Source: a virus
Length of the DNA: 64,000 bases
Direction: 5' to 3' (one strand)
Virus record (IMG/VR): IMGVR_UViG_3300008266_000002
Each line of letters begins with the position of its first letter. Position 1 is the stretch's first letter. A program made the translations under genes and the position numbers. Shown in pieces: positions 2 through 51,296 of the stretch. A model generated the notes under the pieces. The model saw nothing but the letters and a program-made list of their open reading frames with translations, did no database searches and was not told the origin of the DNA.

Positions 2-229
2 GTGTATCATAAAGGTGTTGAGCAACCGGATCTTAAAGATACATTAACACCAACACCACTACAACCAAAAACGCCAAAGGTTAAAAAATCTAAAGTTCAG
101 AAAGCAAAGGAAAAAGCTGAGATAGCAAAACAATATGCCGATCTGAAAAAACAGTTACAGAAAGAGACTCGAAAGACAGTAATCCGTAAGATTGAGTCCC
201 AATTAAAAAAGTTACAAAAACACATCTAA
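2..229 (+). CDS. 5'-truncated Lys-rich hypothetical protein
   Basis: Open frame from window edge, ends 1 nt before the next ATG; basic, helical C-terminus; no family recognised. Confidence 0.6.
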   Translation: MYHKGVEQPDLKDTLTPTPLQPKTPKVKKSKVQKAKEKAEIAKQYADLKKQLQKETRKTVIRKIESQLKKLQKHI

Positions 230-230
230 T

Positions 231-989
231 ATGAATTACACAGCAGAATTATTGCAAGAAAACTATGACCAACTTTTAGGTTATATAGACAAGTACATTA
301 CAGGTATAAGAAAAGATCAACTCAAACAACTCTATGTAGATCATGCTGAGCGTATAATGCTTATGCCAGCCTCTAGTGTGGATCATCATCATAACGCTTT
401 TCCAGGTGGATATGTTGACCATATCAATCGTGTTATTGAGTGTGCTCTTCAACTCAAAGCTTTATGGGCTAATATGGGTGCTTATATTAACTATACTGAT
501 GAAGAGTTAGTATTTGCAGCTATGAATCACGACTTAGGTAAAATAGGTACAGAAGAAGCTGAACAATATATACCTAATGATTCAGAATGGCATAGAAAAA
601 ATCTCGGTAAGTTGTACAAATACAATGCAAGTAATCCTTTTATGCCAGTACCCGATAGAAGCTTGTTTTTATTGCAGCAAAGAGGTATTCGAGTTTCATT
701 CAATGAGTATGTAGCAATTAAGACTCACGATGGCTTGTATGATGAAAGTAACCGACCTTATTTTATATCATCCACAAAAGAATCTAAATTACGAACAAAT
801 CTACCCATCATACTTCACCATGCCGATCATATGGCATCTCGTATAGAGTTCGAGATGTGGGATCGTAACAATGGCAGTACCGAAAAACCTAAGCCAGTTG
901 AAAAACGTACAAAACCAACCATTCCAGCAGATCTTAGTCAGACAGAGAAAGATGATTTAATTAACGTGTTTAATAATTTATTCAAATGA
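231..989 (+). CDS. HD-domain phosphohydrolase/nuclease (YhaM/Cbf1-like)
   Basis: HHHNAFPGGYVDH, HDLGKIG, HDG, HHAD metal-binding motifs. Confidence 0.85.
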   Translation: MNYTAELLQENYDQLLGYIDKYITGIRKDQLKQLYVDHAERIMLMPASSVDHHHNAFPGGYVDHINRVIECALQLKALWANMGAYINYTDEELVFAAMNHDLGKIGTEEAEQYIPNDSEWHRKNLGKLYKYNASNPFMPVPDRSLFLLQQRGIRVSFNEYVAIKTHDGLYDESNRPYFISSTKESKLRTNLPIILHHADHMASRIEFEMWDRNNGSTEKPKPVEKRTKPTIPADLSQTEKDDLINVFNNLFK

Positions 990-35493: not shown

Positions 35494-37638
35494 ATGGCAA
35501 CATCACAATCATCGTACAAAATACCTCAACCAAGAGGTTATGCTAATCGGACATTCTATATTGAGGATACGTCCGCTACATCCCCATTTTATTTTGATAT
35601 ACAAGACTTTCCTCTAGTGGTTGGAGGTGGAAAGCATGTAGTACGATTTAAAGGTAATGGTCTTAATATGAGACTTAACTCTTCCTTTGATGTTGAATTT
35701 ATTGATGCAGATGGTCAGCGTATCTATACAGAAGTATTAAATTACATCGATCGATTTAACAACTACTACATAGCTTTTGAAATTTATGATGTAACAGCTA
35801 GAGGGGTTGCAACAGCCCATTTTGTTGGAGAAGCTTTATATGATCAGAAAGGAACTCCAGTACCATCTCAGTATCGGGACACCTATAATGTTAGATGGAC
35901 AAAGCAATTTAGTGTACAGCCATTTGAACGAAACAACGCTGAGTTGATTTTCGATAATCCACCTCAAGTCAGCATTGATCAAACGATCATTCCAGCAAGG
36001 ATCGTAACAAACAACTCTGGTAGTGGTTTTCGATTTCAAGTCGTAACAGGAAGCCGTACTCAATTTACTATACAAGATACAAGTTTTCGAGGTTATGATA
36101 GGGATTTTGCTTCGAGTACTGATATTATAGATACACGATTGCAGTCAATCAAAGTGGATCCTTTTTCAAATCCGAGAACAACAAACACAGTACCAACACA
36201 AATTCGAAAAAGGGATACTGATATTCAAAATGGTTTTTTTACAACATTTGCTGATCGATACACTACAATAATACAAGCAACATCGTCTTTTTTTACTAAG
36301 CAGTTTTTAGGAGCATTGTTTGAATTTTATGATCAAAATAGTACACCAAGCTACCTTTATCCTTCGCCTCCATCAAATGTCAGTGTATCAGGTAGTGCTA
36401 CAAGTCAATTAGTCTCATACAAAGCGACAGTTGTAGAGGTAATTAATGCACGACAAGCTGTTTTGGATACTCCTCTAGAGGTAAAGGCGTTTGATAATAG
36501 TGGTTTAGGTAGTAGAGAAATAAAACATAAATATTATCAAGCTGGATTATTTACTGGCAGTTTGACTTATATACCAACTGAGTTTACCTATACGACAAGT
36601 TCAGCAGTAAGTGAATCGTATGTTCAGTTTACGTTTACGGATTTAAAGCCTATTAGTGGAGAAGTTTATAGAATTAGAACATCGACGAAGTTTGGAGACA
36701 CCGTTGGAGATTATAAGCTTTTAAATGATCAAGTAGTTAAGCCCGTAGAGTATTTAACAGATGCGGAATATCCAAACGGAATTGCACATACTATGCACGA
36801 TTCTGATTATCGTATGATTGGGCATTTCGTAACTCAGTCAATATTAGAGACATATTGGAACTTTTATTCTGAAATACCAAACGAAGTAGACCTAGTTTCA
36901 GGATCTCTGGGAAACCTAATACAATCGGACTCAGCTTTATTAAACACAAGCTACACACAATCAAAAGTATTTACAACTGCATACGATCAAAACTACAACG
37001 AGAATCAGAAATATACGTTAAGTGCGTACATATCACTAGCACCATATACGGAGTTGGAATTTTATATGATCAGCGATCCACTTAATCTTCATGTGATAAC
37101 ACCATCAATTTTTCCAAAAGCGTTTTTGAAGAGTCCTAATAATGAGAGGACTAGATATGGTGGGGATTATAGCAGGTTTGGAAAATATATTGGAAAAATT
37201 ACAAATGATAGACCAACTCATAAGTACTATGGAAGAGTTCTGTTTGATTTTGAAGCTGATAGTGACGGACTTGGAAGTCCGCTTTTCAGAGCGAAAATCG
37301 TGGATGAGATGAATATTACTGGAAGCGCGTATGTAAGCGATATTAGTATAAAACCATACACCCTGAATGGATTTACCCCAACAATTGTTCAATATGCAGT
37401 ACCTCTTCCAACTGAATTAGTACTAGCTTCACAAGTATCGCAATCAATCGATTTTAAGATTGAATACTTAGACTACACAGGACGGCAATCGGAATACACA
37501 ACCTATGTGGATGATGTTTTATTGAATTTTAGGGTACAAATTGCATCAAACACATGCCAAGACGATAAGCTGTTTTTTGCGTATGATGCATCTTACTTTA
37601 GTATACCAACTCAACCTAAATCATTACCTAGAACATAA
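35494..37638 (+). CDS. Putative tail/baseplate structural protein
   Basis: Beta-rich, 714 aa, late motif upstream, many [ST]xS motifs. Confidence 0.55.
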   Translation: MATSQSSYKIPQPRGYANRTFYIEDTSATSPFYFDIQDFPLVVGGGKHVVRFKGNGLNMRLNSSFDVEFIDADGQRIYTEVLNYIDRFNNYYIAFEIYDVTARGVATAHFVGEALYDQKGTPVPSQYRDTYNVRWTKQFSVQPFERNNAELIFDNPPQVSIDQTIIPARIVTNNSGSGFRFQVVTGSRTQFTIQDTSFRGYDRDFASSTDIIDTRLQSIKVDPFSNPRTTNTVPTQIRKRDTDIQNGFFTTFADRYTTIIQATSSFFTKQFLGALFEFYDQNSTPSYLYPSPPSNVSVSGSATSQLVSYKATVVEVINARQAVLDTPLEVKAFDNSGLGSREIKHKYYQAGLFTGSLTYIPTEFTYTTSSAVSESYVQFTFTDLKPISGEVYRIRTSTKFGDTVGDYKLLNDQVVKPVEYLTDAEYPNGIAHTMHDSDYRMIGHFVTQSILETYWNFYSEIPNEVDLVSGSLGNLIQSDSALLNTSYTQSKVFTTAYDQNYNENQKYTLSAYISLAPYTELEFYMISDPLNLHVITPSIFPKAFLKSPNNERTRYGGDYSRFGKYIGKITNDRPTHKYYGRVLFDFEADSDGLGSPLFRAKIVDEMNITGSAYVSDISIKPYTLNGFTPTIVQYAVPLPTELVLASQVSQSIDFKIEYLDYTGRQSEYTTYVDDVLLNFRVQIASNTCQDDKLFFAYDASYFSIPTQPKSLPRT

Positions 37639-37639
37639 T

Positions 37640-39043
37640 ATGGGCGCTATAACCAGAGTTTTTGATTTATTTTATAAAAGATTCCAAACAGGTTCTACTG
37701 GAACTAATAATAATGATGGTTGGATAGGAAATCTTTCAGAACTGTGGTGGGATATTGATAGTACCACACCACTAATATCAAGTTCTTTCCTAAATTACCC
37801 AAAAGATCCATCCATATCGTCATCATACCTTACAACGAGAGATTCAGGTAGCAATCAATTTTATCGTGCTATACCATGGGGTTCTGCTGCTTGTGATTAT
37901 TTGTGGAATTGTAATGTGCCATCGTGGTCTTATCATGACTCGTCATCAACAGTGGAAAAACCAGGAGGTGGTGGATCGCGAGCAATTGTGGATCGTTTTT
38001 GGACTATAAACACCTTAACAACTGGAAGTTTCTTCAGATATTATCCTCCAGGAGTTAATAACAGCTTCGGAGTTGCAGGATATCCAGTTACATCTAGTTG
38101 GCGCGTATTAGATTTAAAATTTTTTGCAAGTATGAGTGGTAACACAACATCATCCTTTAGATACTTGCATCAGGCTCAGGGAGAGACAGTATATCCAACA
38201 TTTGTAGGAAGCCAATACATAGCTTTTGTGTCACAATCGGAGAGAAGTCAAGAAATAGCATATGATATCACATGGCCTGCTATTACAAGTTTATCGACAG
38301 CGTCTGTTGACGGTGGTTATTTTGATCTAGGGGGTGCTGTAGGAATTACAAGAAGTGCTATTAGTCGCTCTCTCGTAACAATGTCAGTTTATAACTCGGA
38401 TGTCACAGCTACAGGCATACGAAACATGACAGAAGCTCTCAAATCACGAAGACTATTTTTTCCAGTACCAGTTAGCGGAAGTGGAACAACTTTAGGTACA
38501 GACTATTGGTTTAAACAAAATACTGGATACAATGCAACAGAGGTATTTGATACTAACGGAGGAATTTACAATGTGCAATTTTCATTAAAAAAAGCAAGTG
38601 GTTCATATGACATGTATCCTGATAATGATATGTTTATGACTGTTTTTATTCACGATGTGCAATCCAATGTACCAGTATTATCAGAACGAGTACCGGGAGC
38701 GGCAGGATGGTATCCTCCCGAGAATAATATAGTTGTAATAGGTAATGGTTATGGATTAACTCCACAGATGACTTTTGTGGATCAACAATCAGGTTTACAA
38801 ATTGAACGATTTAATTTCAACGTTATTCAATATGGATATCCAGCTCAATTCTGTATTGAAGTAAGTGGTTCTTTGAGTAGCGATAAGTACTTTGGAGTGT
38901 TAGTAGATGATTTTCAAATATGTAAAGTGGGAGTGACGACCGATCCACAATTCATAAAACAACAATCAGTAGCACAAACAACTGTGATATTTACAGGACA
39001 GGGTACCGTCGCACCACCATCATTCCCAGCAGAAGAGTCTTAA
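37640..39043 (+). CDS. Putative virion structural protein
   Basis: Start moved to ATG 37640 (1 nt after the upstream stop); aromatic/Ser-rich, about 13 [ST]xS motifs. Confidence 0.55.
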   Translation: MGAITRVFDLFYKRFQTGSTGTNNNDGWIGNLSELWWDIDSTTPLISSSFLNYPKDPSISSSYLTTRDSGSNQFYRAIPWGSAACDYLWNCNVPSWSYHDSSSTVEKPGGGGSRAIVDRFWTINTLTTGSFFRYYPPGVNNSFGVAGYPVTSSWRVLDLKFFASMSGNTTSSFRYLHQAQGETVYPTFVGSQYIAFVSQSERSQEIAYDITWPAITSLSTASVDGGYFDLGGAVGITRSAISRSLVTMSVYNSDVTATGIRNMTEALKSRRLFFPVPVSGSGTTLGTDYWFKQNTGYNATEVFDTNGGIYNVQFSLKKASGSYDMYPDNDMFMTVFIHDVQSNVPVLSERVPGAAGWYPPENNIVVIGNGYGLTPQMTFVDQQSGLQIERFNFNVIQYGYPAQFCIEVSGSLSSDKYFGVLVDDFQICKVGVTTDPQFIKQQSVAQTTVIFTGQGTVAPPSFPAEES

Positions 39044-39044
39044 T

Positions 39045-39596
39045 ATGATAGCAAACAAGACAATCCAAAATGTGACTAAACCTTTCCCAATTGTGCAAGC
39101 ACTAAGAAATGAGCATGCACTAGGAAAAATATTAATTAAAAATGTCTATCAGCAGTGGAAAGGTGAGAGTATTCAGCAAGTGAAACAATTGCATGAGAAT
39201 AACCCCTATTCATTAAGAATTGGAATGCCAAAAATAGATGATGAATTGAGAGGAGATGCAATGTATTTTATCTTGCACTACTTATCATACAATCCAATTA
39301 CAAAGGATATTGAAAAACGTGAATTAATTCCATATCGTAATATGGAAAAATTATATATTGGTCAATCTATTCAAGAAAAGGAGTATAGTGATTATCGATT
39401 GTTTGTTGATGGGAAGGCCGTTATGCAAGATCTACACTTAACAAACATAGATCAAAACCAATCGATTACCCAGCTAATAGTAAACCTAACGAATAAAGTT
39501 GAAAAACTACAAGCTGAAGTAATAAATTTACGTCGTCAACTTAATTCGAGCCATATTTATACACAAGGTACCGTTAACAATGAATTTACTATCTAA
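39045..39596 (+). CDS. Hypothetical protein with C-terminal coiled coil
   Basis: RLFVDGK...LTNKVEKLQAEVINLRRQL resembles trimerising ends of fibre proteins. Confidence 0.5.
   Translation: MIANKTIQNVTKPFPIVQALRNEHALGKILIKNVYQQWKGESIQQVKQLHENNPYSLRIGMPKIDDELRGDAMYFILHYLSYNPITKDIEKRELIPYRNMEKLYIGQSIQEKEYSDYRLFVDGKAVMQDLHLTNIDQNQSITQLIVNLTNKVEKLQAEVINLRRQLNSSHIYTQGTVNNEFTI
39554..39561 (+). promoter_or_regulatory. Putative late promoter TATTTATA (within upstream CDS)
   Basis: 18 nt before ATG 39580. Confidence 0.6.
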
Positions 39597-41463
39597 ATAT
39601 TTAGTCGAAAGTATTATAAAGGAGCTGCAATCGAGTGTTGTAGTTTTATTGCCTGGAGGATTTAAGCCACCACATGCAGGACATTTAGAGCTAGCCAAAA
39701 GATATGCGAGTCAAGCAAATGTTTCGGAAGTAAGAGTGCTAATTGGTCCAAAAGAGAGAGATGGAATAACTAGAGATCAAAGTGTTGCAGTGTGGAAGTT
39801 ATTACTTGGCAACACACCAAATATTGTCGTAGAAAGTGTAGCTGATGACAACCCAATGAGAGCAGCTTACAAATATATTGAAACGGCAGAACCTGGAACA
39901 TATGCATTGGGTGCTAGTTCAAAAGGAGAGGATTATGCAAGAGTAAAAGGCTTTGTTGATGGACATGCTTTAGGTACAAAATATCATAGACCTGGAGTTG
40001 AAGTAATTGAGTTATCTGTAGACACAGCTCCAATATATTATAAGGGAAGAACAGATGGTACAAACGGTAAGGGAATAAGTGCATCAACACTCAGAGCAGA
40101 CTTAGCTGCGAACGATTATACTAACTTCAAGACAAACTACCCAAACATACCTGAATCCGTAACGAAAGCAATTTTTAACATATTGACAAAAAAGACCCTC
40201 AGTGAAAGGACAATATTGACGGAAGGTGGTGCTGCTGGTCATATGACACATCCGTACGAAGATTACGATATGTCCTTCAAAGATATGGAAAGTATGATTG
40301 ATGCAGCTCTAAGTGGAAAAGTAGAATTTGCTCAAGAAAAGTTGGATGGTCAAAATTTAATGGTCACTTATAAGGATGGAAAAGTAAGAGCAGCAAGAAA
40401 CAAAGGACATCTAAAGAATGCTGGGGAAACTTCATTAACACTGAAGCAAATAGAGGATATGTATGCGGACAGAGGACCAATCCAAACAGCATTTACTGAA
40501 GCAATGAGGGATATGGAAACTGCAATTAATAGACTGACTCCACAACAAAAACAAGAATTTTTTGGTAACGGCACTAAATTTGTAAACTTTGAAATTTTAT
40601 ATCCGGCAACAGCAAATGTAGTTCCTTATGGAGCAGCTCAACTAAGACTACATAATATAACAGAATATGACGAAAGTGGTAATGTTGTTAATACGGATAC
40701 AAATTTAGTAAAGCAATTGGATAGTGCTATACGTCAGGTAGAAGCACAAAATCAAAAAACATATGAAATTCGTGTTACTGATCCAATAACACTGAATAAA
40801 ACCAAGGACTACGAAAAACAAAAACAAGAACTCATTAAGGCTGTTCAGGATATTAAGGCAAAATTCAATTTAAAGGACTCAGACACTTTAGCAACTTATA
40901 TTAGACGTTGGTGGGAGCGTTTCTTAAAGGCTAGTGCAAAAGCATATGGTTATGAAATTACACCACAGAATATAGAACAGCTAACTAATCGTTGGGCATT
41001 TTCTGACAAGAGTACAAACATCAAAGCCGTACGTGATGCCGTAACGAATGATGATTTTAAAAACTGGATAGTGTCATTTGATAAATCTGATTTTGCTACA
41101 CAAAAGAAAATAGCAATTAAACCATTTGAATCTGTTTTCCTTAGATTAGGAGTCAGTGTTCTTAAAAACATATCCCAATTAGTATCACTGAATCCAGATC
41201 AAAGTGTCAGACAAATAAGAAAGGATTTAGATAATGCAATTACACAAATTAAACAAGCAGCCACCACGAGAGATATGGGGGATGATGACGCATCATTAAA
41301 ATTCCTTAAACGTGAACTTGAGAAATTAAAGGATATTGGAGGATTTGATGCCATTGTACCGCTAGAAGGTGTTGTGTTTAAGTATGGGGGTAAGCTATAT
41401 AAATTAACGGGAGCATTTGCACCAATCAATCAAATCATAGGGTATTTAAAATTTGGAAGATAA
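39580..41463 (+). CDS. Fusion of HxGH nucleotidyltransferase (cytidyltransferase-like) and ATP-dependent ligase-like domain
   Basis: GGFKPPHAGH and GISASTLR in the N-domain; EKLDG, ARNKG, NFEI, EGVVFK, YKLTG ligase-type motifs in the C-domain. Confidence 0.75.
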   Translation: MNLLSKYLVESIIKELQSSVVVLLPGGFKPPHAGHLELAKRYASQANVSEVRVLIGPKERDGITRDQSVAVWKLLLGNTPNIVVESVADDNPMRAAYKYIETAEPGTYALGASSKGEDYARVKGFVDGHALGTKYHRPGVEVIELSVDTAPIYYKGRTDGTNGKGISASTLRADLAANDYTNFKTNYPNIPESVTKAIFNILTKKTLSERTILTEGGAAGHMTHPYEDYDMSFKDMESMIDAALSGKVEFAQEKLDGQNLMVTYKDGKVRAARNKGHLKNAGETSLTLKQIEDMYADRGPIQTAFTEAMRDMETAINRLTPQQKQEFFGNGTKFVNFEILYPATANVVPYGAAQLRLHNITEYDESGNVVNTDTNLVKQLDSAIRQVEAQNQKTYEIRVTDPITLNKTKDYEKQKQELIKAVQDIKAKFNLKDSDTLATYIRRWWERFLKASAKAYGYEITPQNIEQLTNRWAFSDKSTNIKAVRDAVTNDDFKNWIVSFDKSDFATQKKIAIKPFESVFLRLGVSVLKNISQLVSLNPDQSVRQIRKDLDNAITQIKQAATTRDMGDDDASLKFLKRELEKLKDIGGFDAIVPLEGVVFKYGGKLYKLTGAFAPINQIIGYLKFGR

Positions 41464-41464
41464 T

Positions 41465-41761
41465 ATGAAACTAAAAAAACTATTGGAAAAAAAAGAGGCC
41501 ATTGCCACATCACCAAGCACAAATATGACTCTTCATTACGACTCAGGATTTGATAGTGTTGGTGAAGATGGAACACCAGAATTTAACTTTACCATAAGTG
41601 TATCATCAACTGGAGGAAAAGAATTCTTTAGAGGTGTAGCTGATAGTGAAGAAAGTGCAAAAATGGCTGAGGGTGTAAGATTAGAGCTTAGAAGAGCCTT
41701 GCGTAGATTTGACAAAAATGTTCAACAAATTATCGAAAAATATCACTTACAAGCAAGATGA
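41465..41761 (+). CDS. Small protein, probable head-packaged (MKLKKLLE leader)
   Basis: ATG 41465; basic leader ending L-L-E. Confidence 0.6.
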   Translation: MKLKKLLEKKEAIATSPSTNMTLHYDSGFDSVGEDGTPEFNFTISVSSTGGKEFFRGVADSEESAKMAEGVRLELRRALRRFDKNVQQIIEKYHLQAR

Positions 41762-42264
41762 AAAATTTACATGTTACGACTGGAAAAATTACTACTAAAC
41801 GTGTTGAAGGAGATGAATGGGAAGAAGGTGGTAAGTTATGGACTATTAAGAATGGTATAAAGAGAACGGTTACAAAAATGGATCATGCACGAAAAGAGTT
41901 TTTAACTCCATTAGCATGTCCAGAATGTGGATCCCCAATGAAGCATCATTTAGATGAGAAAATGTGGGCAATACATAAAAGATGTTTCAACTGTGTTATT
42001 GATATGGAGCATGAGATTATGAAAGCAGGAAATTGGGAAGAGTATGAGAAGGGCAAAATATTAGCAAACGCAAATAGTTTTATAAAAGATTTAGAGGAAT
42101 ATGTGCAAGAATTTGTACAAGATCAAACATCCAAATCACATGTTACAGAGGATGGTTTAATTGAGAAGTGGAAGGATGCTGATCAAAGTTATTTAAAACA
42201 AATTGGTGAAACTGTAATAACTGAAGTAAAACAAAACGTTGAAAATTTTGCAAATAATGATTGA
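41758..42264 (+). CDS. Zinc-finger hypothetical protein
   Basis: CPEC...CFNC. Confidence 0.65.
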   Translation: MKNLHVTTGKITTKRVEGDEWEEGGKLWTIKNGIKRTVTKMDHARKEFLTPLACPECGSPMKHHLDEKMWAIHKRCFNCVIDMEHEIMKAGNWEEYEKGKILANANSFIKDLEEYVQEFVQDQTSKSHVTEDGLIEKWKDADQSYLKQIGETVITEVKQNVENFANND

Positions 42265-42868
42265 TACTGGAATAGTTGTAGCAATAATTACGAGCATTCT
42301 TGGGCCCGTAATCGTAGTATTATTGAATACAAGATTAAACAAGAAAAAGAAAGGTGGTGATATGGTTGCAGACGCATTAGCAGTCAGCGATAAGATTATG
42401 CACAAACTAGATTACATTAAGGATGAGTTTAAAGCTGATCGAGTTTGGTTAGCTCAATTCCATAACGGTGGTCATTTTTATCCTACTGGAAAATCAATTG
42501 CTAAGTTTAGTATGGTGTATGAGATCGTTGAATCAACAACCAAATCAATCCAAAGCAATTTTCAAAACATCCCAGTGAGTTTATTTAGTAAGCCAATTAA
42601 TCATCTACTAGAAAAAGAAGTTATTGAGATACCTGATTATAGAGATGAAACGGTTGCAACTTATGGATTAAAATATATTGCTGAAGATGCCGGATCAAAG
42701 TCAACATACATGTTTGCAATTAAAACAATCGACAATAAGTTTATTGGTGTATTAGCCATAGACTTTACAAGAAAGAGAGTGCAATTAGATCACGATCAAA
42801 TTAACATTATCCATAATCATGCCACTGCAATAGGTGGTGTACTGAATACCCACTTACACAAAAACTAA
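42257..42868 (+). CDS. Putative holin, T4 gpT-like (one TM helix + GAF-like domain)
   Basis: N-terminal TM; RVWLAQFHNGG, FIGVLAIDF GAF-like strands; start moved to ATG 42257. Confidence 0.6.
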   Translation: MIDTGIVVAIITSILGPVIVVLLNTRLNKKKKGGDMVADALAVSDKIMHKLDYIKDEFKADRVWLAQFHNGGHFYPTGKSIAKFSMVYEIVESTTKSIQSNFQNIPVSLFSKPINHLLEKEVIEIPDYRDETVATYGLKYIAEDAGSKSTYMFAIKTIDNKFIGVLAIDFTRKRVQLDHDQINIIHNHATAIGGVLNTHLHKN

Positions 42869-42869
42869 T

Positions 42870-43352
42870 ATGAACGAAGAATCAAAAGGCCTTTGGCATA
42901 ATATTAGAGCAAAAAGAGCAAGAGGTGAGAAGCCAGCTCGTAAGGGATCTGAAGCTTATAAAAAGGCAGTGACAGCTGCAAAAAAGATTAATGAGGCTAA
43001 TGAAGAGGTGACTCTGTGTGAGGTATGTGCATTAGCCTTATTAGAAGATATCGTAGCTGGCAAGTATATGCTCTCAGAAGCTGAGTACAAAGGTCGTGAA
43101 GTTAAGTTGGGTAAGCCAATGAAGGGTGACGTAAAAAAGTATAAAGTTTATGTCAAGAATGATGCTGGTAATGTAGTAAAGGTGAATTTTGGCGATAAAG
43201 GACTTTCTATTAAGAGAGATGATCCAGAACGTAGAAGATCGTTCAGAGCACGTCACAAATGTTCACAGAAGAAAGATAGAACCTCTGCAGGATATTGGAG
43301 TTGTAGAATGTGGTCTAGTAAGCCGGTTAGTCAAATATTAAAAGGAAAGTAA
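42870..43352 (+). CDS. Conserved basic phage protein
   Basis: VKVNFGDK...PERRRSFRARHKC...AGYWSC motif; several x-x-E sites (INE, LLE, LSE). Confidence 0.65.
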   Translation: MNEESKGLWHNIRAKRARGEKPARKGSEAYKKAVTAAKKINEANEEVTLCEVCALALLEDIVAGKYMLSEAEYKGREVKLGKPMKGDVKKYKVYVKNDAGNVVKVNFGDKGLSIKRDDPERRRSFRARHKCSQKKDRTSAGYWSCRMWSSKPVSQILKGK

Positions 43353-43353
43353 T

Positions 43354-43557
43354 ATGCCATACACTCATAAAAAGGTAGGGGATAAATATTGTGTTTATAA
43401 AAAGGACACAGGAAAAAAAGTTGGATGTACTGATGGAAACAAAGAGGCCTTGCGAAAGTATTTAGCTGCTCTACATATTCAAGCAAATGAAAATTTACAA
43501 CCAACCTTGCGTGAAATACTTCGTCAAGAAATCCGCAAAATAATAAAATCCTTATGA
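43354..43557 (+). CDS. Small protein with C-terminal LREILRQEIRKII motif
   Basis: Same helix motif as the N-termini of other small proteins. Confidence 0.6.
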   Translation: MPYTHKKVGDKYCVYKKDTGKKVGCTDGNKEALRKYLAALHIQANENLQPTLREILRQEIRKIIKSL

Positions 43558-43967
43558 TAAAATTAGTTGATATATTATTGGAAGCTGAGAAAGGAAAATG
43601 CCCACCAGCTACACAAGATATTAGTTTAAATCTTAAAAATAGACAGAAGGCTATTGAGGAATATGGTTATGGTCCATTGAATCCTAACGAACCAAATGAA
43701 AAATTTTGGAATAAGAAAGTTGAAATGTGGCAGTTGGATTCGGTTGAGGAAGCTAAGGAGGCTTTATGTGGAAACTGTGCTGCATTTGATATTACTAAAA
43801 AAACATTAAATTGTATTGCAATGGGGATTGGTGATGACGAAGGTAGTGAAGATCCATTCGATGTAATAGAGGCTGGTCAATTGGGTTATTGTAGATTCTT
43901 AAAGTTTAAGTGCGCAGCTAAGAGAACTTGTGATGCTTGGGTAGTTGGAGGACCAATTAAAGATTAA
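43554..43967 (+). CDS. Cys-rich (metal-binding) small protein
   Basis: MIKLVDILLE leader; CGNC...C...GYC...FKC...RTC. Confidence 0.65.
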   Translation: MIKLVDILLEAEKGKCPPATQDISLNLKNRQKAIEEYGYGPLNPNEPNEKFWNKKVEMWQLDSVEEAKEALCGNCAAFDITKKTLNCIAMGIGDDEGSEDPFDVIEAGQLGYCRFLKFKCAAKRTCDAWVVGGPIKD

Positions 43968-43973
43968 TGTGTA

Positions 43974-43981
43974 TATTTATA
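43974..43981 (+). promoter_or_regulatory. Putative late promoter TATTTATA
   Basis: Intergenic, 13 nt before ATG 43995. Confidence 0.7.
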
Positions 43982-43994
43982 TAAAATAACAAAA

Positions 43995-44411
43995 ATGAAA
44001 CTTATAAACCTCATACCACTAAAAGAGCTTGCAGTTGAAGATGTATCGGCAACAGAGCCAGAAATGATCGCAACTCCATACTTTCGTGAATTCCAGACCG
44101 TTCATGGATATAGACCAGTGTTTAAATATATTGGTAATAAAGGTGACCAAATGATCTTTGTTGCTGACGTAAATGATTTCGGCATGTTGGATATGATTAT
44201 TACAGATGCAAAATTATTTGCCAAAGTAACAGAAAAAGAAGCTACTTTTGGTATAGTTTACACTTTATCGGGTCTTGAGCAGTTTGATGCCACGGTATGT
44301 AAGATGAAACAAAAAAACGGTCAAATTGAGCGTTTAATGTTTGACAATAAAGATAAGAAAAATTTTGATGCTAAAACAACTAATTTCGTTGACTTATTAG
44401 ATAAACAATAA
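43995..44411 (+). CDS. Hypothetical protein (MKLINLIPLKE leader)
   Basis: Leader ending L-K-E; late motif upstream. Confidence 0.6.
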   Translation: MKLINLIPLKELAVEDVSATEPEMIATPYFREFQTVHGYRPVFKYIGNKGDQMIFVADVNDFGMLDMIITDAKLFAKVTEKEATFGIVYTLSGLEQFDATVCKMKQKNGQIERLMFDNKDKKNFDAKTTNFVDLLDKQ

Positions 44412-44728
44412 TGAAAAAGAACACTGCAAAAAAATCCTTAATGGAAAATAGTTTACGTCAATTGATTAGAAAAGAAATATATAGATTGATGGAAGCTGAA
44501 GAAACTGAAGAGGTGCCTCAAGAAGAGCCTCAACCAGAAGAAGAGGGAATGAGTGCTGATTTTGAGGAAGCACTTAACTATTTTATCAGAAAGCTGAGAA
44601 GTAGTACTGATAATGTGGGTGATGATGATCTAGTAGAAATGCTTAGTACCATTATAGACACTTTTACATCATCAAACGAGTCAAAATTAAATATACTTAA
44701 GCAGGTAAGAAACAACACTGTACGATAA
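44411..44728 (+). CDS. Acidic hypothetical protein (LRQLIRKEIYRLME motif)
   Basis: Shared helix motif followed by a Glu-rich linker. Confidence 0.6.
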   Translation: MKKNTAKKSLMENSLRQLIRKEIYRLMEAEETEEVPQEEPQPEEEGMSADFEEALNYFIRKLRSSTDNVGDDDLVEMLSTIIDTFTSSNESKLNILKQVRNNTVR

Positions 44729-44907
44729 TGAAAACATCACATATCATTAAACGACTAAAAGAAGATACAGAGTATCAGGAGTTTTTTAAAAAAGCAATGA
44801 AAAAATTTGATATTTCGTCACCAGCTGAATTAAGTGGTGAAAAGAAAAAGGATTTTTTTAACTACGTAGATACAAACTACAAAGCTAAAACTGAAACACG
44901 ATTCTAA
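44728..44907 (+). CDS. 59-aa protein missing from the ORF track
   Basis: MKTSHIIKRLKEDTEYQEFFKKAMKKFDISSPAELSGEKKKDFFNYVDTNYKAKTETRF; TAATG overlaps at both ends; L-K-E leader. Confidence 0.8.
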   Translation: MKTSHIIKRLKEDTEYQEFFKKAMKKFDISSPAELSGEKKKDFFNYVDTNYKAKTETRF

Positions 44908-49940: not shown

Positions 49941-50682
49941 AAAGCTAACAAAAAAAGAACTCGCTGAGTTAAAACTCTATGTGAGAGAGCAGTCAAAAAA
50001 GCTCAAAAATGAAGGCAGTACGACTGCTGGAGTTCCTGGCTATCAAACACCAGCTGCATTCACTGGAAAGGAAGGTGGCGAAGGAGCTGAGAGCTTTGAT
50101 TATGAGGATGATCAATTTGCGTATTCAGAGAAAGCTCCAAAAACACATAAGCATTCGATAAAGCTGCATGAAGTGAGTTATAAAGCCTTTAAGCAAGATA
50201 ATACAGTAAACGAGATACAAAAAGTTAATAAAAAGATTCTTGAGGTAAACAAAATGCTTCGTGAAATCTCAAGATCATTAGATCATAGCATAAAATTAAA
50301 ACAAGAATCGGCTTTAGATAATTCGGTATACTGGAAACGTACAAACGAGGCTATTTTAAAAATAAACAATAGATTGGCAGAAGTTAGTAAAAAAGCACGT
50401 AAACTTGCAAACCTAAAAGAACTTGCTGCATCAAGTGTGAAAGCTAAATTAGAGCAACTTTTCAAAAAAGCTGGAATACAAGTAACGCCACAGGACATAG
50501 AATACAATCAAGTGGGTACTGAGCATTATGAGTTTGACGTTTATCTAAACGGAGAGCCATACGCTATAGACTATCAAAATGGTGACCTTACGTTTCAGGA
50601 TTATGATCAAGAGGTGGTTTTAGGTAATTTTAATCAGGAAGCTGATCTAATCAAAAACATAGCACAAACTTTTAAACAATGA
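49930..50682 (+). CDS. Putative prohead core/internal protein
   Basis: Between portal and protease; LKLYVREQSKKLKNE motif, LHE and LKE sites. Confidence 0.5.
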   Translation: MQNKKLTKKELAELKLYVREQSKKLKNEGSTTAGVPGYQTPAAFTGKEGGEGAESFDYEDDQFAYSEKAPKTHKHSIKLHEVSYKAFKQDNTVNEIQKVNKKILEVNKMLREISRSLDHSIKLKQESALDNSVYWKRTNEAILKINNRLAEVSKKARKLANLKELAASSVKAKLEQLFKKAGIQVTPQDIEYNQVGTEHYEFDVYLNGEPYAIDYQNGDLTFQDYDQEVVLGNFNQEADLIKNIAQTFKQ

Positions 50683-51296
50683 ATAAGCAAGTAATAGTTG
50701 ACTACATTGGCTCAATCCAATTCACACCTGAGCAAATTAATGAATCTATCTCAACAAATGGTGGTAAGTTGATTGTTAGTGGAATTATGCAAAGAGGTAG
50801 TACTGGGAATGAAAAAAACTTTAACCAAAATGGAAGAAGTTATCCACTACCAATTCTTAGACGTGAGGCGGATAAATATAAAAAAGTTTTTGTAGCTGAA
50901 CGTAGAGCATTAGGTGAGTTAGATCACCCAGAATCTTCAGTAGTAAATTTATCTAACGTGTCCCACAATATTGTTGATCTTTGGTGGGATGGTACTGACC
51001 TAATGGGTAAGATTGAAATACTAGCAACGCCTTCAGGAAACATTGCCAAAGAGCTTTTGAGAGCTGGTATTCGTTTAGGTATTAGTTCTAGAGGTATGGG
51101 ATCTGTGAGAGAGTTAGGAGAAGGAAAGGTTGAAGTGCAAGATGATTTTGAAATCGTATGTTGGGACTTAGTGTCAAATCCATCAACACAAGGTGCTTTT
51201 ATGGATAACTTAAATGAGTCTAAGCAAGGATTGATAGTTAATAGTAGATACACAAGAGTGAATGCCCTTATTAATGATATAATTTCAATAATGTAA
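50679..51296 (+). CDS. gp21: Prohead protease (T4 gp21-like)
   Basis: NQNGRSY, ALGELDHP, VSH, GISSRGMGS, WDLVSNPST. Confidence 0.93.
   Translation: MNKQVIVDYIGSIQFTPEQINESISTNGGKLIVSGIMQRGSTGNEKNFNQNGRSYPLPILRREADKYKKVFVAERRALGELDHPESSVVNLSNVSHNIVDLWWDGTDLMGKIEILATPSGNIAKELLRAGIRLGISSRGMGSVRELGEGKVEVQDDFEIVCWDLVSNPSTQGAFMDNLNESKQGLIVNSRYTRVNALINDIISIM

What the first reader, a model, noticed from the sequence alone, without database searches (positions are those of the whole stretch)
39580..41463. HxGH nucleotidyltransferase fused to a ligase-like domain, with a likely protease-cleavable linker
Seen: N-domain with PPHAGH and ISAS motifs (NMNAT/PPAT/cytidyltransferase class); C-domain with ligase-type covalent nucleotidyltransferase motifs EKLDG (I), ARNK (Ia), FEI (III), EGVV (IV), YKL (V) and no obvious OB domain, as in RNA ligases. 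The join TLSERTILTE|GGAAGHM (~40195-40245) holds two L-x-E sites, the N-terminus has a type-1 leader, and a late motif lies upstream. Inference: a packaged two-enzyme polyprotein split during head maturation and injected, perhaps for RNA/tRNA repair or NAD/nucleotide restoration against host defences. Substrates cannot be read from sequence.
Basis: partly seen in the sequence, partly recalled or inferred. Interest (0 to 1): 0.72.

Follow-up and report, generated by a model that had tools for sequence, protein, structure and literature searches.

The report
Phage adenylyltransferase fused to RNA-ligase-like enzyme
A T4-like phage encodes, just upstream of its DNA-packaging genes, one late protein that joins an NMNAT/PPAT-type adenylyltransferase to an unnamed enzyme with the fold and catalytic motifs of RNA ligases; its leader and linker look like cutting sites of the phage head protease, so it is probably an RNA-repair kit carried in the virion, though activity, packaging and cutting are untested.

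Summary
Window 39580-41463 (+) is a 627-aa ORF. Residues ~18-205 are an HxGH adenylyltransferase (PPHAGH, ISASTLR; structural neighbours NadD, PPAT, NadM). Residues 216-627 model confidently (pLDDT 94) as an RNA-ligase nucleotidyltransferase with motifs I (K254), Ia, III, IV and V, no OB domain, and a ~185-aa helical insert between motifs IIIa and IV.

The C-domain has no Pfam family and is phage-only, with at least 1850 clusters at 50% identity. By profile it is closest to T4 Rnl1. In relatives the HxGH+ligase pair is constant, and extra domains include a Pnk-like kinase, a 2H esterase and a CCA-adding enzyme, which together look like a tRNA-repair kit.

A parallel pairing, HxGH plus DUF6267, is a core gene pair of T4-like cyanophages. 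Their HxGH protein has been detected in virions by mass spectrometry.

The leader (MNLLSKYLVE) and linker (LSE, LTE|GGAAGH) fit T4-type capsid targeting and gp21 cleavage, are conserved, and are modelled as disordered. Packaging and cutting are therefore plausible (~0.5) but unproven. The N-domain substrate is unknown.

The scan found this protein type before on other DNA, and my tests agree with those reports. It is a new variant of a known kind; interest 0.6.

The parts
39554..39561 (+). Promoter-like motif TATTTATA, 26 nt before the start codon, inside the 3' end of the upstream gene
   Evidence: There are 13 + strand copies against 2 on the - strand. Ten lie 12-31 nt before an ATG, including portal (47210) and adaptor (57035). 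Function is inferred, not tested.
39580..41463 (+). Whole ORF, 627 aa plus stop: HxGH adenylyltransferase fused to an RNA-ligase-like nucleotidyltransferase
   Evidence: Homologues of 55-94% identity over the full length. Full-length model pLDDT 87.5, pTM 0.62.
39580..39624 (+). N-terminal leader MNLLSKYLVE|SIIKE| (residues 1-15) with two (L/I)xE sites; candidate capsid-targeting sequence
   Evidence: Conserved as MNxLxK(Y/F)L(V/I)E. pLDDT 54-58, and below 50 for residues 10-17. Absent from about 18 of 76 HxGH-first relatives, so it is not part of the fold. A similar leader sits on relatives whose first domain differs. It resembles the T4 CTS MKTYQEFIAE (PMC8442874).
39631..40194 (+). HxGH (HIGH-class) adenylyltransferase domain, residues ~18-205; PPHAGH at 39667-39684, ISASTLR at 40075-40095
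   Evidence: PF01467 E 0.0027, below the cut-off. Relatives match down to 1.7e-10. Foldseek hits NadD, PPAT, ATP sulfurylase and NadM at E ~1e-4, prob 1.00. hhalign to cyanophage cytidyltransferases gives Prob 96.9%, E 1.8e-10.
40195..40239 (+). Flexible linker, residues 206-220 (TLSERTILTEGGAAG), with LSE (40198-40206) and LTE (40216-40224); proposed cut after E215, between nt 40224 and 40225
   Evidence: pLDDT below 50 for residues 206-220. In 129 cluster representatives P3 is L/I in 126 and P1 is E in 101, followed by GG. The MCP of this phage has LLKE|GS where T4 gp23 is cut. Cleavage is not shown.
40225..41460 (+). RNA-ligase-like covalent nucleotidyltransferase domain, residues 216-627
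   Evidence: AF2 pLDDT 94.2, pTM 0.90. The top 11 of 48,161 PDB representatives are all RNA ligases, Z 7.2-9.3, ~185 aa aligned.
40240..40263 (+). Pre-motif HMTHPYED (residues 221-228), near-invariant
   Evidence: H221, H224 and P225 are at least 90% conserved. Aligns with the (R)PFxKFFN element of Rnl1-family ligases. The same HMTH(A)ED motif occurs in DUF6267.
40336..40356 (+). Motif I EKLDGQN; K254 (40339-40341) is the predicted AMP-accepting lysine
   Evidence: K254, D256 and G257 are invariant. Aligned to motif I of Rnl1-family ligases.
40393..40404 (+). Motif Ia ARNK (residues 272-275)
   Evidence: A272, R273 and K275 are invariant in A4. Aligned to the T(R/K)GS element of the Rnl1 family.
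40588..40605 (+). Motif III FEILYP (E338), followed by NVVPY
   Evidence: E338, N346 and Y350 are invariant. Aligns with FEIIYPxNRIVVDY of Rnl1-like ligases.
40810..41352 (+). All-alpha insertion (residues ~411-591, seven helices) between motif IIIa and motif IV
   Evidence: Secondary structure of the model. Fold matches skip it, aligning ~185 of 415 residues across 5..409. Removing it raises the hhalign match to Rnl1 from Prob 41% to 79%.
41365..41379 (+). Motif IV EGVVF (E596, G597)
   Evidence: G597 is invariant and E596 at least 90% conserved. Aligned to EGYVA of Rnl1-like ligases.
41389..41412 (+). Motif V GKLYKLTG (K605, K608)
   Evidence: K608, T610 and G611 are invariant. K608 aligns with the first lysine of the Rnl1 KxK.
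50679..51296 (+). T4 gp21-type head maturation protease, the enzyme proposed to cut the leader and linker
   Evidence: phrog_207 E 2.5e-52. It lies between portal (47210) and MCP (54030).

Best explanation
The gene encodes a late, two-enzyme protein of a T4-like phage.

SHOWN BY COMPUTATION
- Residues ~18-205 are an HxGH adenylyltransferase of the NMNAT/NadD/PPAT type.
- Residues 216-627 are a covalent nucleotidyltransferase with the RNA-ligase fold and all catalytic motifs: K254 in EKLDGQN, Ia ARNK, III E338, IV E596, V K608.
- By profile the C-domain is closest to the T4 Rnl1/Trl1 branch. It has a ~185-aa helical module inserted between motifs IIIa and IV, instead of a C-terminal domain, and no OB domain.
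- The family is unnamed, phage-only and large. The HxGH+ligase pair is its constant core. Relatives add a Pnk-like P-loop kinase, a 2H esterase, a CCA-adding enzyme and, by eye, a DxDxT phosphatase.

INFERRED MECHANISM
- K254 takes AMP from ATP and passes it to a 5'-phosphate RNA end. The enzyme then seals broken tRNA/RNA left by host anticodon nucleases, with the helical insert holding the RNA as the Rnl1 C-domain does.
- The HxGH domain makes an adenylylated small molecule, most likely NAD+ from NMN, or possibly adenylylates an RNA phosphate end. This is the weakest step.

INFERRED DELIVERY
- The N-terminal leader loads the protein into the prohead. The gp21-type protease then removes the leader (after E10/E15) and cuts the linker (after E209/E215).
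- Two free enzymes are left, the second starting GGAAGHMTHP, and both enter the cell with the DNA.
For: FOLD AND MOTIFS
- C-domain model: pLDDT 94.
- Foldseek PDB top hits: T4 Rnl1, Rnl3, Trl1, Rnl2 and NgrRnl.
- VIA-align: Z 9.8 NgrRnl, 8.8 Trl1 and REL1, 8.7 T4 Rnl1.
- In the search that does not use Foldseek, the top 11 of 48,161 chains are all RNA ligases. DNA ligases score Z 5.4-7.7 and capping enzymes 5.4-5.5.
- Catalytic residues are invariant.
- hhalign against 10 Rnl1-family sequences: E 2.9e-4. With the insert removed: E 1.6e-5, Prob 79%, motifs I, Ia, III, IV and V in register. Controls: Rnl2 E 0.07, reversed query E 0.1.

RNA-REPAIR CONTEXT
- Pfam census of 49 long relatives: CTP_transf_like 27, Zeta_toxin/AAA_33 kinase 5/4, PolyA_pol (CCA-adding) 1, 2_5_RNA_ligase2 1.
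- All 8 locus proteins scanned have CTP_transf_like upstream of the ligase domain.
- A 98%-complete relative genome has no canonical PF09414 or PF09511 ligase.

PARALLEL PAIRING
- HxGH and DUF6267 (another KxDG protein) occur as adjacent genes, as ~627-aa fusions, and in reverse order in S-PM2.

DELIVERY
- gp21-type protease in the window.
- The gene sits next to TerL, portal and protease in every relative with enough flank.
- It has a late-type motif shared with the portal gene.
- The leader is conserved, dispensable for the fold, and portable between first domains.
- 18 of 59 window genes carry such a leader, against 10% of internal segments (p 2e-5).
- The linker is disordered.
- P3 is L/I in 126 of 129 and P1 is E in 101 of 129 representatives.
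- Stand-alone C-domain proteins have only a 7-29-aa leader ending in LxE before GGAxGH.
- DUF6267 proteins have an (L/I/M/V)xE site 8-9 residues before HMTH in 48 of 85 distinct sequences.
- The MCP has LLKE|GS at the place of the T4 gp23 cut.
- The N-domain is homologous to cyanophage 'cytidyltransferase' T4-GC 190 (Prob 96.9%). That protein has virion proteomic data (PMC3037559 supplement). It was detected in S-SCSM1 and other virions (PMC9602691) and in S-CREM2 (PMC10665884).
- T4 CTS and Glu-specific cleavage: PMC8442874, PMC3012670, PMC5694885.
Against: - No biochemical, proteomic or expression data exist for this protein or for any member of its C-domain family.
- Sequence profiles of known ligase families do not reach their thresholds (PF09414 E 0.15; PF09511 not listed). 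The best Rnl1 profile match needed the insert to be cut out.
- Fold Z-scores of 8-10 are only moderately above background.
- 28 of 129 family representatives have C, M or A at P1, so cutting at that site cannot be universal or essential.
- GGAxGH is too conserved to be a mere spacer and could be an active-site loop.
- About 18 of 76 HxGH-first relatives lack a leader.
- The virion proteomics concern distant HxGH homologues (25% identity), not the ligase-like domain. T4-GC 71 (DUF6267) has no proteomic flag in PMC3037559.
- The substrate of the N-domain cannot be read: NadD, PPAT, ATP sulfurylase and NadM score alike, and all NCBIfam equivalogs are far below their cut-offs.
Confidence: 0.55

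Rival explanations
1. The same two enzymes act in the cytoplasm and are not packaged. The protein works uncut as a bifunctional enzyme during infection. LxE-GGAxGH is then a structural or active-site element of the ligase-like domain, and the N-terminal helix is only a cap of the HxGH domain.
For: - GGAxGH is near-invariant, which a spacer need not be.
- P1 is C, M or A in 28 of 129 representatives.
- A forced global hhalign puts LxEGGA opposite the ExRG strand of Rnl1 ligases, at low confidence.
- Some relatives have no leader.
- (L/I)xE is a common tripeptide: 10% of internal 17-mers contain one.
- The authors of PMC9602691 themselves allow that abundant proteins may co-purify with virions.
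Against: - The segment is modelled as disordered in two independent models.
- E can be replaced, so it is not catalytic.
- Stand-alone proteins carry 7-13-aa N-terminal peptides very like the T4 CTS, e.g. MRNIGPYLIE|GG and MITFRQYISE|GG.
- The same grammar appears in DUF6267, whose profile does not match this family.
- The gene sits in the head-gene block with a late-type motif.
Confidence: 0.27
2. The C-domain is not an RNA-repair ligase. It could be a DNA nick-sealing ligase, a capping-type guanylyltransferase, or an enzyme that only adenylylates (AMPylates) a nucleic-acid end or a protein.
For: - The fold is shared by DNA ligases (Z 5.4-7.7) and capping enzymes (Z 5.4-5.5).
- The second lysine of motif V (KxK) is an invariant Thr here (K608-L-T610).
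- The helical insert has no characterised counterpart.
- Tox-ART and zinc-finger/HNH partners are not repair functions.
Against: - RNA ligases outrank all DNA ligases and capping enzymes in three searches.
- There is no OB domain, which DNA ligases and capping enzymes need.
- The profile affinity is to Rnl1, not to others tested.
- The partner domains are RNA end-healing and tRNA enzymes.
Confidence: 0.1
3. The pair is an NAD-centred device. One version: the ligase-like domain takes AMP from NAD+ and the HxGH domain regenerates NAD+ from the released NMN. Another version: the pair makes or uses NAD-capped or otherwise adenylylated RNA ends. The aim would be to resist NAD+-depleting defences rather than tRNA cleavage.
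For: - The HxGH domain always accompanies a KxDG domain in three arrangements.
- Close structural neighbours are NaMN/NMN adenylyltransferases.
- Phage NAD+ reconstitution against defence is known (cited in PMC12801897; PMC9503650).
Against: - No NadV/Nampt, Nudix or KptA partner appeared in the domain census.
- The C-domain lacks the Ia domain of NAD+-dependent ligases, and the only LigA hit is noise (PF01653 E 0.094 in 1 of 24).
- PPAT and ATP sulfurylase score as well as NMNATs.
Confidence: 0.08

Closest known systems
T4 RNA ligase 1 (gp63) / fungal tRNA ligase Trl1-LIG family (Pfam PF09511, Rnl1 branch)
   Same: - Covalent nucleotidyltransferase fold: Z 8.2-8.8, 181-202 residues aligned.
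- Motifs I, Ia, III, IV and V and the pre-motif (HP-F/Y vs RPF) align in register.
- The motif III context FEI(L/I)YPxxxNV(V)xY is nearly the same.
- No OB domain, and an all-helical accessory module.
- Phage-encoded, and in relatives joined to kinase and phosphatase-type healing domains.
   Different: - No PF09511 hit.
- The helical module is inserted between motifs IIIa and IV instead of following motif V.
- The second motif V lysine is Thr.
- Unique GGAxGH-x-HP N-terminal motif.
- Always paired with an HxGH adenylyltransferase.
- Carries a leader and LxE sites.
Naegleria NgrRnl / Deinococcus DraRnl (Rnl5), Trypanosoma REL1 and T4 Rnl2 nucleotidyltransferase domains (PF09414)
   Same: Best structural scores: Z 9.3-9.8 NgrRnl, 8.7-8.8 REL1, 8.0 Rnl2. 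KxDGxN-type motif I.
   Different: - PF09414 E 0.15, below the cut-off.
- hhalign to two Rnl2-like sequences E 0.07.
- None of the characteristic accessory domains: no N-terminal OB-like domain of Rnl5 and no Rnl2 C-domain.
- 13-15% identity.
Pfam DUF6267 (PF19782) with CTP_transf_like: the 'cytitidyltransferase' gene pair T4-GC 71/190 of T4-like cyanophages (e.g. S-PM2 p141/p142)
   Same: - Same layout read by eye: leader-LxE, HMTH(A/P)xED, KxDG, helical middle, EG-motif and K at the C-terminal end.
- Same partner (HxGH domain), same sizes (~415 aa alone, ~627 aa fused), same kind of phage.
- Nearest ESM-Atlas clusters are 24% DUF6267.
- Foldseek matches the S-PM2 protein at E 5e-5.
- The HxGH partner was detected in virions.
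   Different: - The DUF6267 HMM does not match this protein or 24 relatives.
- Profile-profile E 0.06-0.2.
- DUF6267 is itself uncharacterised, so the comparison transfers no function.
NMN/NaMN adenylyltransferases (NadD, NadM, NadR) and phosphopantetheine adenylyltransferase (CoaD)
   Same: HxGH and ISxxxxR motifs. Rossmann-like fold: Foldseek E 1e-4 to 1e-3, prob 1.00, TM to target up to 0.69. G-x-F-x-P-x-H-x-G-H as in archaeal/NadM-type NMNATs (general knowledge).
   Different: All NCBIfam equivalog scores are far below their cut-offs (23 bits against 103-341). The substrate pocket was not analysed. It is fused to a ligase-like enzyme, which none of these are.
T4 internal proteins IPI-III and Alt: capsid-targeting sequence removed by prohead protease gp21
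   Same: A ~10-residue N-terminal leader ending in aromatic-(L/I)-x-E (MNLLSKYLVE against MKTYQEFIAE). A gp21-type protease is encoded nearby. Late gene beside the head genes. Several tandem sites, as in T4 and phiKZ-like propeptides (PMC5694885).
   Different: Packaging and cleavage are untested here. There is an internal site between two enzymes, giving a polyprotein-like design. The cargo would be nucleic-acid/nucleotide enzymes rather than restriction inhibitors or an ADP-ribosyltransferase.
RNA healing-and-sealing systems (T4 Pnkp + Rnl1; bacterial Pnkp/Hen1) and phage polyvalent proteins (Iyer et al. 2017, PMC5512222)
   Same: Relatives join kinase, phosphoesterase and ligase-type domains in one polypeptide. 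They are multi-domain late proteins next to virion genes.
   Different: This protein itself has no kinase or phosphatase. No metallopeptidase or ArdC hub domain was found in it. The polyvalent-protein paper does not list this ligase-like domain.

Membership tests
Covalent nucleotidyltransferase superfamily (ATP-dependent RNA/DNA ligases, capping enzymes) | Motif I KxDG with the nucleotide-accepting lysine | tested here: met
   EKLDGQN at 253-259. K254, D256 and G257 are invariant in 57-75 homologues.
Covalent nucleotidyltransferase superfamily (ATP-dependent RNA/DNA ligases, capping enzymes) | Motifs III, IV and V in that order after motif I | tested here: met
   FEILYP (E338), EGVVF (E596) and GKLYKLTG (K608) are conserved and aligned to those of Rnl1-family ligases. 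The spacing between III and IV is unusual (258 aa).
Covalent nucleotidyltransferase superfamily (ATP-dependent RNA/DNA ligases, capping enzymes) | Nucleotidyltransferase fold | tested here: met
   Model pLDDT 94. The top 11 of 48,161 PDB representatives are RNA ligases, Z 7.2-9.3, ~185 aa aligned, rmsd 3.9-5.2.
Covalent nucleotidyltransferase superfamily (ATP-dependent RNA/DNA ligases, capping enzymes) | Formation of a covalent lysyl-NMP intermediate | not testable with these tools
   Needs labelling of purified protein with [alpha-32P]ATP, plus K254A as a control.
Rnl1 family (T4 RNA ligase 1, PF09511) | Match to the family profile above the curated threshold | tested here: not met
   PF09511 is not among the Pfam hits at E <= 1. 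phrog_562 E 0.07.
Rnl1 family (T4 RNA ligase 1, PF09511) | Profile-profile homology over the nucleotidyltransferase domain | tested here: inconclusive
   hhalign E 2.9e-4, Prob 41% as is. With the insert deleted: E 1.6e-5, Prob 79%. Controls E 0.07-0.1.
Rnl1 family (T4 RNA ligase 1, PF09511) | All-helical domain C-terminal to motif V | tested here: not met
   The protein ends 16 residues after motif V. A helical module lies between motifs IIIa and IV instead.
Rnl2/Rnl5-type RNA ligases (PF09414) | Match to the family profile above the curated threshold | tested here: not met
   PF09414 E 0.15, 12.6 bits against a cut-off of 27, motif I region only. hhalign to Rnl2-like sequences E 0.07.
DUF6267 (PF19782) | Match to the family profile | tested here: not met
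   No hit for this protein or 24 relatives, nor for homologues in 5 records. True DUF6267 proteins score E 1e-70.
DUF6267 (PF19782) | Remote homology (profile-profile) and shared layout | tested here: inconclusive
   hhalign E 0.06-0.2 against 83 DUF6267 sequences. The HMTHxED, KxDG and C-terminal EG/K motifs and the HxGH partner are shared. Atlas score 0.96-0.97. Foldseek E 5e-5 to the S-PM2 protein.
HxGH (HIGH) nucleotidyltransferases, CTP_transf_like PF01467 | HxGH motif and ISxxxxR motif in a Rossmann-like fold | tested here: met
   PPHAGH at 30-35 and ISASTLR at 166-172. Foldseek prob 1.00 to NadD, PPAT and NadM.
HxGH (HIGH) nucleotidyltransferases, CTP_transf_like PF01467 | Pfam gathering score | tested here: inconclusive
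   This protein scores 18.4 bits against a cut-off of 21. Homologous domains of relatives pass: 27 of 49 with best E 1.7e-10, and 8 of 8 loci at E <= 0.01.
NMN/NaMN adenylyltransferase (NadD, NadM, NadR equivalogs) | Equivalog-level profile score and NMN-binding residues | tested here: not met
   Best NCBIfam scores are 13-23 bits against cut-offs of 103-449. Substrate residues were not analysed, and enzymatic activity is not testable here.
T4-type capsid-targeted, protease-processed internal proteins | Short N-terminal leader ending in (L/I)xE, with a gp21-type protease in the genome | tested here: met
   MNLLSKYLVE. Protease phrog_207 E 2.5e-52. Leaders are enriched in the window: 18 of 59 against 10%, p 2e-5.
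T4-type capsid-targeted, protease-processed internal proteins | Presence in virions and removal of the leader | not testable with these tools
   Only indirect support: distant HxGH homologues were detected in cyanophage virions.

The most novel reading that the evidence does not exclude
T4-like phages of aquatic bacteria pre-load their capsids with a protease-released RNA-repair kit. It would consist of a new branch of RNA ligase (helical module inserted in the catalytic domain) and an HxGH enzyme. The HxGH enzyme would act not on NMN but on RNA phosphate ends, adenylylating a 5'-P or 3'-P. Broken tRNAs could then be resealed from the first seconds of infection, before any phage gene is expressed. 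This would be the first injected RNA-repair system and a new chemistry for the HIGH-class nucleotidyltransferases.
Probability: 0.15. Interest if true: 0.85.

Novelty: new variant of a known kind. Interest (0 to 1): 0.6.

Why it matters
RNA ligases of phages are the classic counter to host anticodon nucleases, but only a few families are known and none is known to travel in the virion.

This family is large: at least 1850 clusters at 50% identity. It is phage-only, has no Pfam family, and has an unusual build. It is locked to an HxGH adenylyltransferase. The same pairing, with DUF6267 in place of this ligase-like domain, is a core and still unexplained gene pair of marine T4-like cyanophages.

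If the enzymes are packaged and cut as their conserved leaders and linkers suggest, this would extend the T4 internal-protein idea from restriction inhibitors to nucleic-acid repair or cofactor enzymes. It would also give a testable function to proteins repeatedly seen in cyanophage virion proteomes.

A compact new RNA ligase may also be useful as a laboratory tool.

Tried and rejected
SEARCHES THAT GAVE NOTHING
- Sequence-level searches of the C-domain: Pfam and NCBIfam found only noise, and a PDB search with a 24-sequence profile found only noise.
- Megablast of 20 kb of the window against phage records found no match.
- The window's whole genome is not held, so other repair genes of this phage could not be sought.
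- Mel-JY01 has no paper in the library.
- The polyvalent-protein paper (PMC5512222) and the viral NAD-ADPr paper (PMC9503650) do not describe this domain or this fusion.

HOMOLOGY TESTS THAT FAILED
- DUF6267: the HMM does not match, and hhalign with 3 or 83 sequences is not significant. I therefore did not file the protein there.
- Rnl2-type affinity is not supported, although that control alignment had only two sequences.

IDEAS DROPPED
- That the zinc-finger/HNH inserts of relatives are inteins: they lack the Cys1 and His-Asn ends, read. One unrelated relative does carry a true intein.
- That the family is cellular: only 12 loci in 185,579 species' genomes, all on MAG contigs, and those with enough flank carry TerL, portal and protease. 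That scan used a single peptide pattern, so its sensitivity is limited.
- S-PM2 p143 and P-SSM2 gp195, next to the cyanophage cytidyltransferases, are not ligase-like.
- The P-SSM2 'tRNA ligase' nearby looks, by eye, like an aminoacyl-tRNA-synthetase-type protein rather than an RNA ligase. This was not tested.

NOT ACHIEVABLE
- The substrate of the N-domain could not be narrowed: NadD, PPAT, ATP sulfurylase and NadM are tied.

Full report
THE OBJECT

Window 39580-41463 (+) is one 627-aa ORF with an ATG start.
- PPHAGH, residues 30-35
- ISASTLR, 166-172
- LSE, 207-209
- LTE|GG, 213-217
- EKLDGQN, 253-259
- ARNK, 272-275
- FEILYP, 337-342
- EGVVF, 596-600
- GKLYKLTG, 604-611

The protein ends 16 residues after motif V.

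PHAGE CONTEXT

The window is a T4-like myovirus. It encodes baseplate wedge and tape-measure proteins, a fused SbcD-SbcC, TerL (45578), portal (47210), a gp21-type head protease (50679, phrog_207 E 2.5e-52) and the MCP (54030). Its MCP is 53-54% identical to those of Flavobacterium phage immuto and Microcystis phage Mel-JY01. There is no near-identical record among cultured phages.

The gene has its own copy of 5'-TATTTATA-3', 26 nt before the ATG. Ten of the 13 + strand copies of this word lie 12-31 nt before a start codon, among them the portal and head-tail adaptor genes.

N-DOMAIN (RESIDUES ~18-205)

Alone, the N-domain is just under the Pfam threshold for CTP_transf_like (18.4 against 21 bits). 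The homologous domain of relatives passes, in 27 of 49 with best E 1.7e-10.

In the full-length model (pLDDT 87.5) its structural neighbours are all adenylyltransferases, at E about 1e-4 and probability 1.00: NadD, PPAT, ATP sulfurylase and NadM. No NCBIfam equivalog comes near its cut-off. The class is therefore certain and the substrate is open.

A profile of the domain matches the 'cytitidyltransferase' of T4-like cyanophages (P-SSM2 gp194, S-PM2 p142) at Prob 96.9%, E 1.8e-10 (tblastn E 2e-4).

C-DOMAIN (RESIDUES 216-627)

Sequence-level evidence:
- There is no significant hit in Pfam, NCBIfam or PDB sequences, even with a profile.
- The family is huge. There are 1949 hits among the 8000 candidates scored. 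There are 1850 representatives at 50% identity, 654 of them at E <= 1e-30. Members are ~415-aa stand-alone proteins or the C-terminal domain of proteins of 500-2000 aa.

Structural evidence:
- The AlphaFold model built on 75 sequences is very confident (pLDDT 94.2, pTM 0.90).
- Foldseek ranks T4 Rnl1, archaeal Rnl3, Trl1, T4 Rnl2 and NgrRnl first.
- VIA-align gives Z 9.8 (NgrRnl), 8.8 (Trl1, REL1) and 8.7 (T4 Rnl1), with about 185 residues aligned across model residues 5-409.
- In the search that does not depend on Foldseek, the first 11 of 48,161 representatives are all RNA ligases. DNA ligases follow at Z 5.4-7.7 and capping enzymes at 5.4-5.5.
- These Z values are moderate. The uniform identity of the top hits and the invariant catalytic residues make the assignment safe.

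Architecture:
- About 185 residues (411-591, seven helices) are inserted between motif IIIa and motif IV.

Profile comparison with known ligases:
- Against ten Rnl1-family ligases fetched from phage records: E 2.9e-4 as is.
- With the insert removed: E 1.6e-5, Prob 79%. The pre-motif (HP-Y/F against RPF) and motifs I, Ia, III, IV and V are in register.
- Controls: a reversed query gave E 0.1 and two Rnl2-like sequences gave E 0.07.

I read the domain as a divergent Rnl1-like ligase whose helical accessory module has moved inside the catalytic domain.

WHAT IT IS FOR

Distribution and synteny:
- The family is viral. Only 12 loci were found in one genome per 185,579 prokaryote species, all on MAG contigs. 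This was a single-pattern scan.
- The contigs with enough flank carry TerL, portal and the gp21-type protease in the same order as the window: NT-ligase gene, a zinc-ribbon gene like window 41758, TerL, portal, protease.

Partner domains:
- All eight locus proteins scanned have a CTP_transf_like domain upstream of the ligase-like domain.
- The consensus of 49 long relatives starts with a GRFQPF...H nucleotidyltransferase.
- Further partners are Zeta-toxin/AAA_33 P-loop kinases, a CCA-adding enzyme (PolyA_pol E 2e-30), a 2H phosphoesterase, ROS/MucR zinc fingers and one ART.
- By eye there is also a DxDxT (HAD) module and a hydrophobic hairpin between the two core domains.
- Kinase, phosphoesterase, CCA-adding enzyme and ligase together make the inventory of tRNA healing and sealing.

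A 98%-complete relative genome has no canonical Rnl1- or Rnl2-type ligase, whereas Mel-JY01 has an Rnl1-like gene as well.

I therefore commit to ATP-dependent RNA (tRNA) sealing through K254-AMP as the most likely activity. This is inferred, at about 0.6.

A PARALLEL SYSTEM

In three viral contigs the N-domain homologue (44-53% identical) is a separate gene, and the next gene is a 416-aa DUF6267 protein (PF19782, E 2e-70).

DUF6267 shows the same layout by eye: leader ending in LNE, HMTHAED, KFDG, a helical middle, and DEGFAV plus K at the C-terminal end. Other arrangements of the same pairing:
- About 30 of its 120 closest relatives are ~627-aa HxGH-DUF6267 fusions.
- In cyanophage S-PM2, p141 and p142 together are DUF6267 followed by CTP_transf_like, the reverse order.
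- In the table of Sullivan et al. 2010, T4-GC 71 and T4-GC 190 are adjacent in most cyanomyoviruses.

Evidence on whether the two families are related:
- The ESM Atlas puts my C-domain next to clusters that are 24% DUF6267.
- Foldseek matches the S-PM2 protein at E 5e-5.
- Against this, the DUF6267 HMM and profile-profile comparison do not connect the two families.

A KxDG enzyme with an internal helical module paired with an HxGH adenylyltransferase is thus a recurrent, unexplained design of T4-like phages, and the window shows its unnamed version.

PACKAGING AND CLEAVAGE

T4 loads internal proteins through a ~10-residue CTS (MKTYQEFIAE), which gp21 removes by cutting after Glu (PMC8442874, PMC3012670, PMC5694885).

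The leader:
- MNLLSKYLVE is conserved in homologues and modelled with low confidence.
- It is missing from about 18 of 76 HxGH-first relatives whose first strand starts at residue 3-5.
- A similar leader (MxKLTEWLxKPxLE) sits on relatives whose first domain is different.

The linker:
- Residues 206-220 have pLDDT below 50.
- In 129 cluster representatives the residue three before GGAxGH is L/I in 126. The residue just before is E in 101, C in 15, M in 11 and A in 2.
- Stand-alone C-domain proteins have only 7-29 residues before this site, and these look like the T4 CTS: MRNIGPYLIE|GG, MITFRQYISE|GG, MALDLLLE|GG.

Supporting context:
- DUF6267 proteins have an (L/I/M/V)xE site 8-9 residues before HMTH in 48 of 85 distinct sequences, both as the end of an N-terminal leader and as a linker after the HxGH domain.
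- The window's MCP has LLKE|GS where T4 gp23 is cut.
- 18 of 59 window genes have such a leader, against 10% of internal segments (p 2e-5).
- The cyanophage HxGH homologue has virion proteomic data (PMC3037559 supplement). It was detected in virions of S-SCSM1 and, as cited there, of S-CBWM1 and another Synechococcus phage (PMC9602691). A cytidylyltransferase was also found in S-CREM2 virions (PMC10665884). P-SSM2 gp194 starts MKSFSQFLTE.

Against:
- Nothing is known for this protein or for any ligase-like domain.
- 22% of clusters cannot be cut after Glu at that site.
- The near-invariant GGAxGH may be an active-site loop.
- Co-purification with virions is possible.

I put packaging plus cleavage at about 0.5.

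VERDICT

The enzymatic reading is supported and sharpened to an Rnl1-like RNA ligase fold with an internal helical insert, paired with an HxGH adenylyltransferase. The delivery story is plausible and now testable, but not shown.

Earlier follow-ups of this scan on other genomes (e1-5726116, e1-5938797) reached the same general reading. My tests agree with them and add four things: the Rnl1 profile link, the partner census, the DUF6267/cyanophage parallel, and the published virion proteomics.

This is a new variant of a known kind (RNA ligases; capsid-targeted phage proteins). Interest 0.6.

Noticed in passing
relatives P0033, P0104, P0138, P0130, P0143 (junction corresponding to window 40216-40239): A ROS/MucR zinc finger plus HNH-like module is inserted in frame exactly inside the junction motif (…LLNEGG-[insert]-LLLC-GGAAGH…). 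P1 then becomes Cys. It looks like a homing-endonuclease gene that landed in the most conserved DNA of the gene. It has no intein ends.
   Followed up: partly
window 41758-42264 (+): A 168-aa zinc-ribbon protein (CPECG…CFNC) follows the NT-ligase gene and precedes TerL in 11 related loci, even where the ligase domain is only 35-40% identical. It may be the small terminase subunit or a partner of the enzyme.
   Followed up: partly
window, 13 + strand sites, e.g. 11496, 25968, 35482, 39554, 43974, 47191, 55738, 56267, 57007, 61451: 5'-TATTTATA-3' lies 12-31 nt before ten start codons, including portal and head-tail adaptor. Only 2 copies are on the other strand. It is a candidate late promoter of this phage, and is the reverse complement of the T4 late word TATAAATA.
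   Followed up: partly
window 41465-44907 (+): A run of small genes between this gene and TerL starts with leaders ending in (L/I)xE: MKLKKLLE, MIKLVDILLE, MKLINLIPLKE, MKTSHIIKRLKE. Across the window, 18 of 59 genes have such a leader, against 10% expected.
   Followed up: partly
window 54030-54200 (+), MCP N-terminus: LLKE|GS lies about 29 residues before LVRR, at the place where T4 gp23 is cut (LTE|AEIGG). There are two more LLE sites upstream. This is the probable MCP propeptide and an indication of the protease's preference for (L)xE|G.
   Followed up: no
L038 (Synechococcus phage S-PM2, NC_006820 103025-104804): The annotated genes p141 and p142 are the two halves of one DUF6267 domain (profile positions 1-157 and 194-376), followed by CTP_transf_like. 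The split is a frame change in the old record, and a 591-aa version exists in BFVD.
   Followed up: yes
L037 (Flavobacterium phage immuto gp088, 907 aa, annotated NadR): The nearest cultured relative carries the HxGH domain inside a larger protein that also has a pol-beta-type GDLD motif and two HExxH motifs. This is the look of the 'polyvalent' injected proteins of Iyer et al. 2017. Read by eye only.
   Followed up: no
window 32292-35477 (+): SbcD-like (Mre11) and SbcC-like (Rad50) parts are fused in one 1061-aa ORF (phrog_100 on residues 4-353, phrog_77 on residues 320-1059).
   Followed up: no
window 37541-39043 (+): The listed TTG start overlaps the preceding gene by ~100 nt. The real start is probably the ATG at about 37640 (MGAITRV…).
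   Followed up: no
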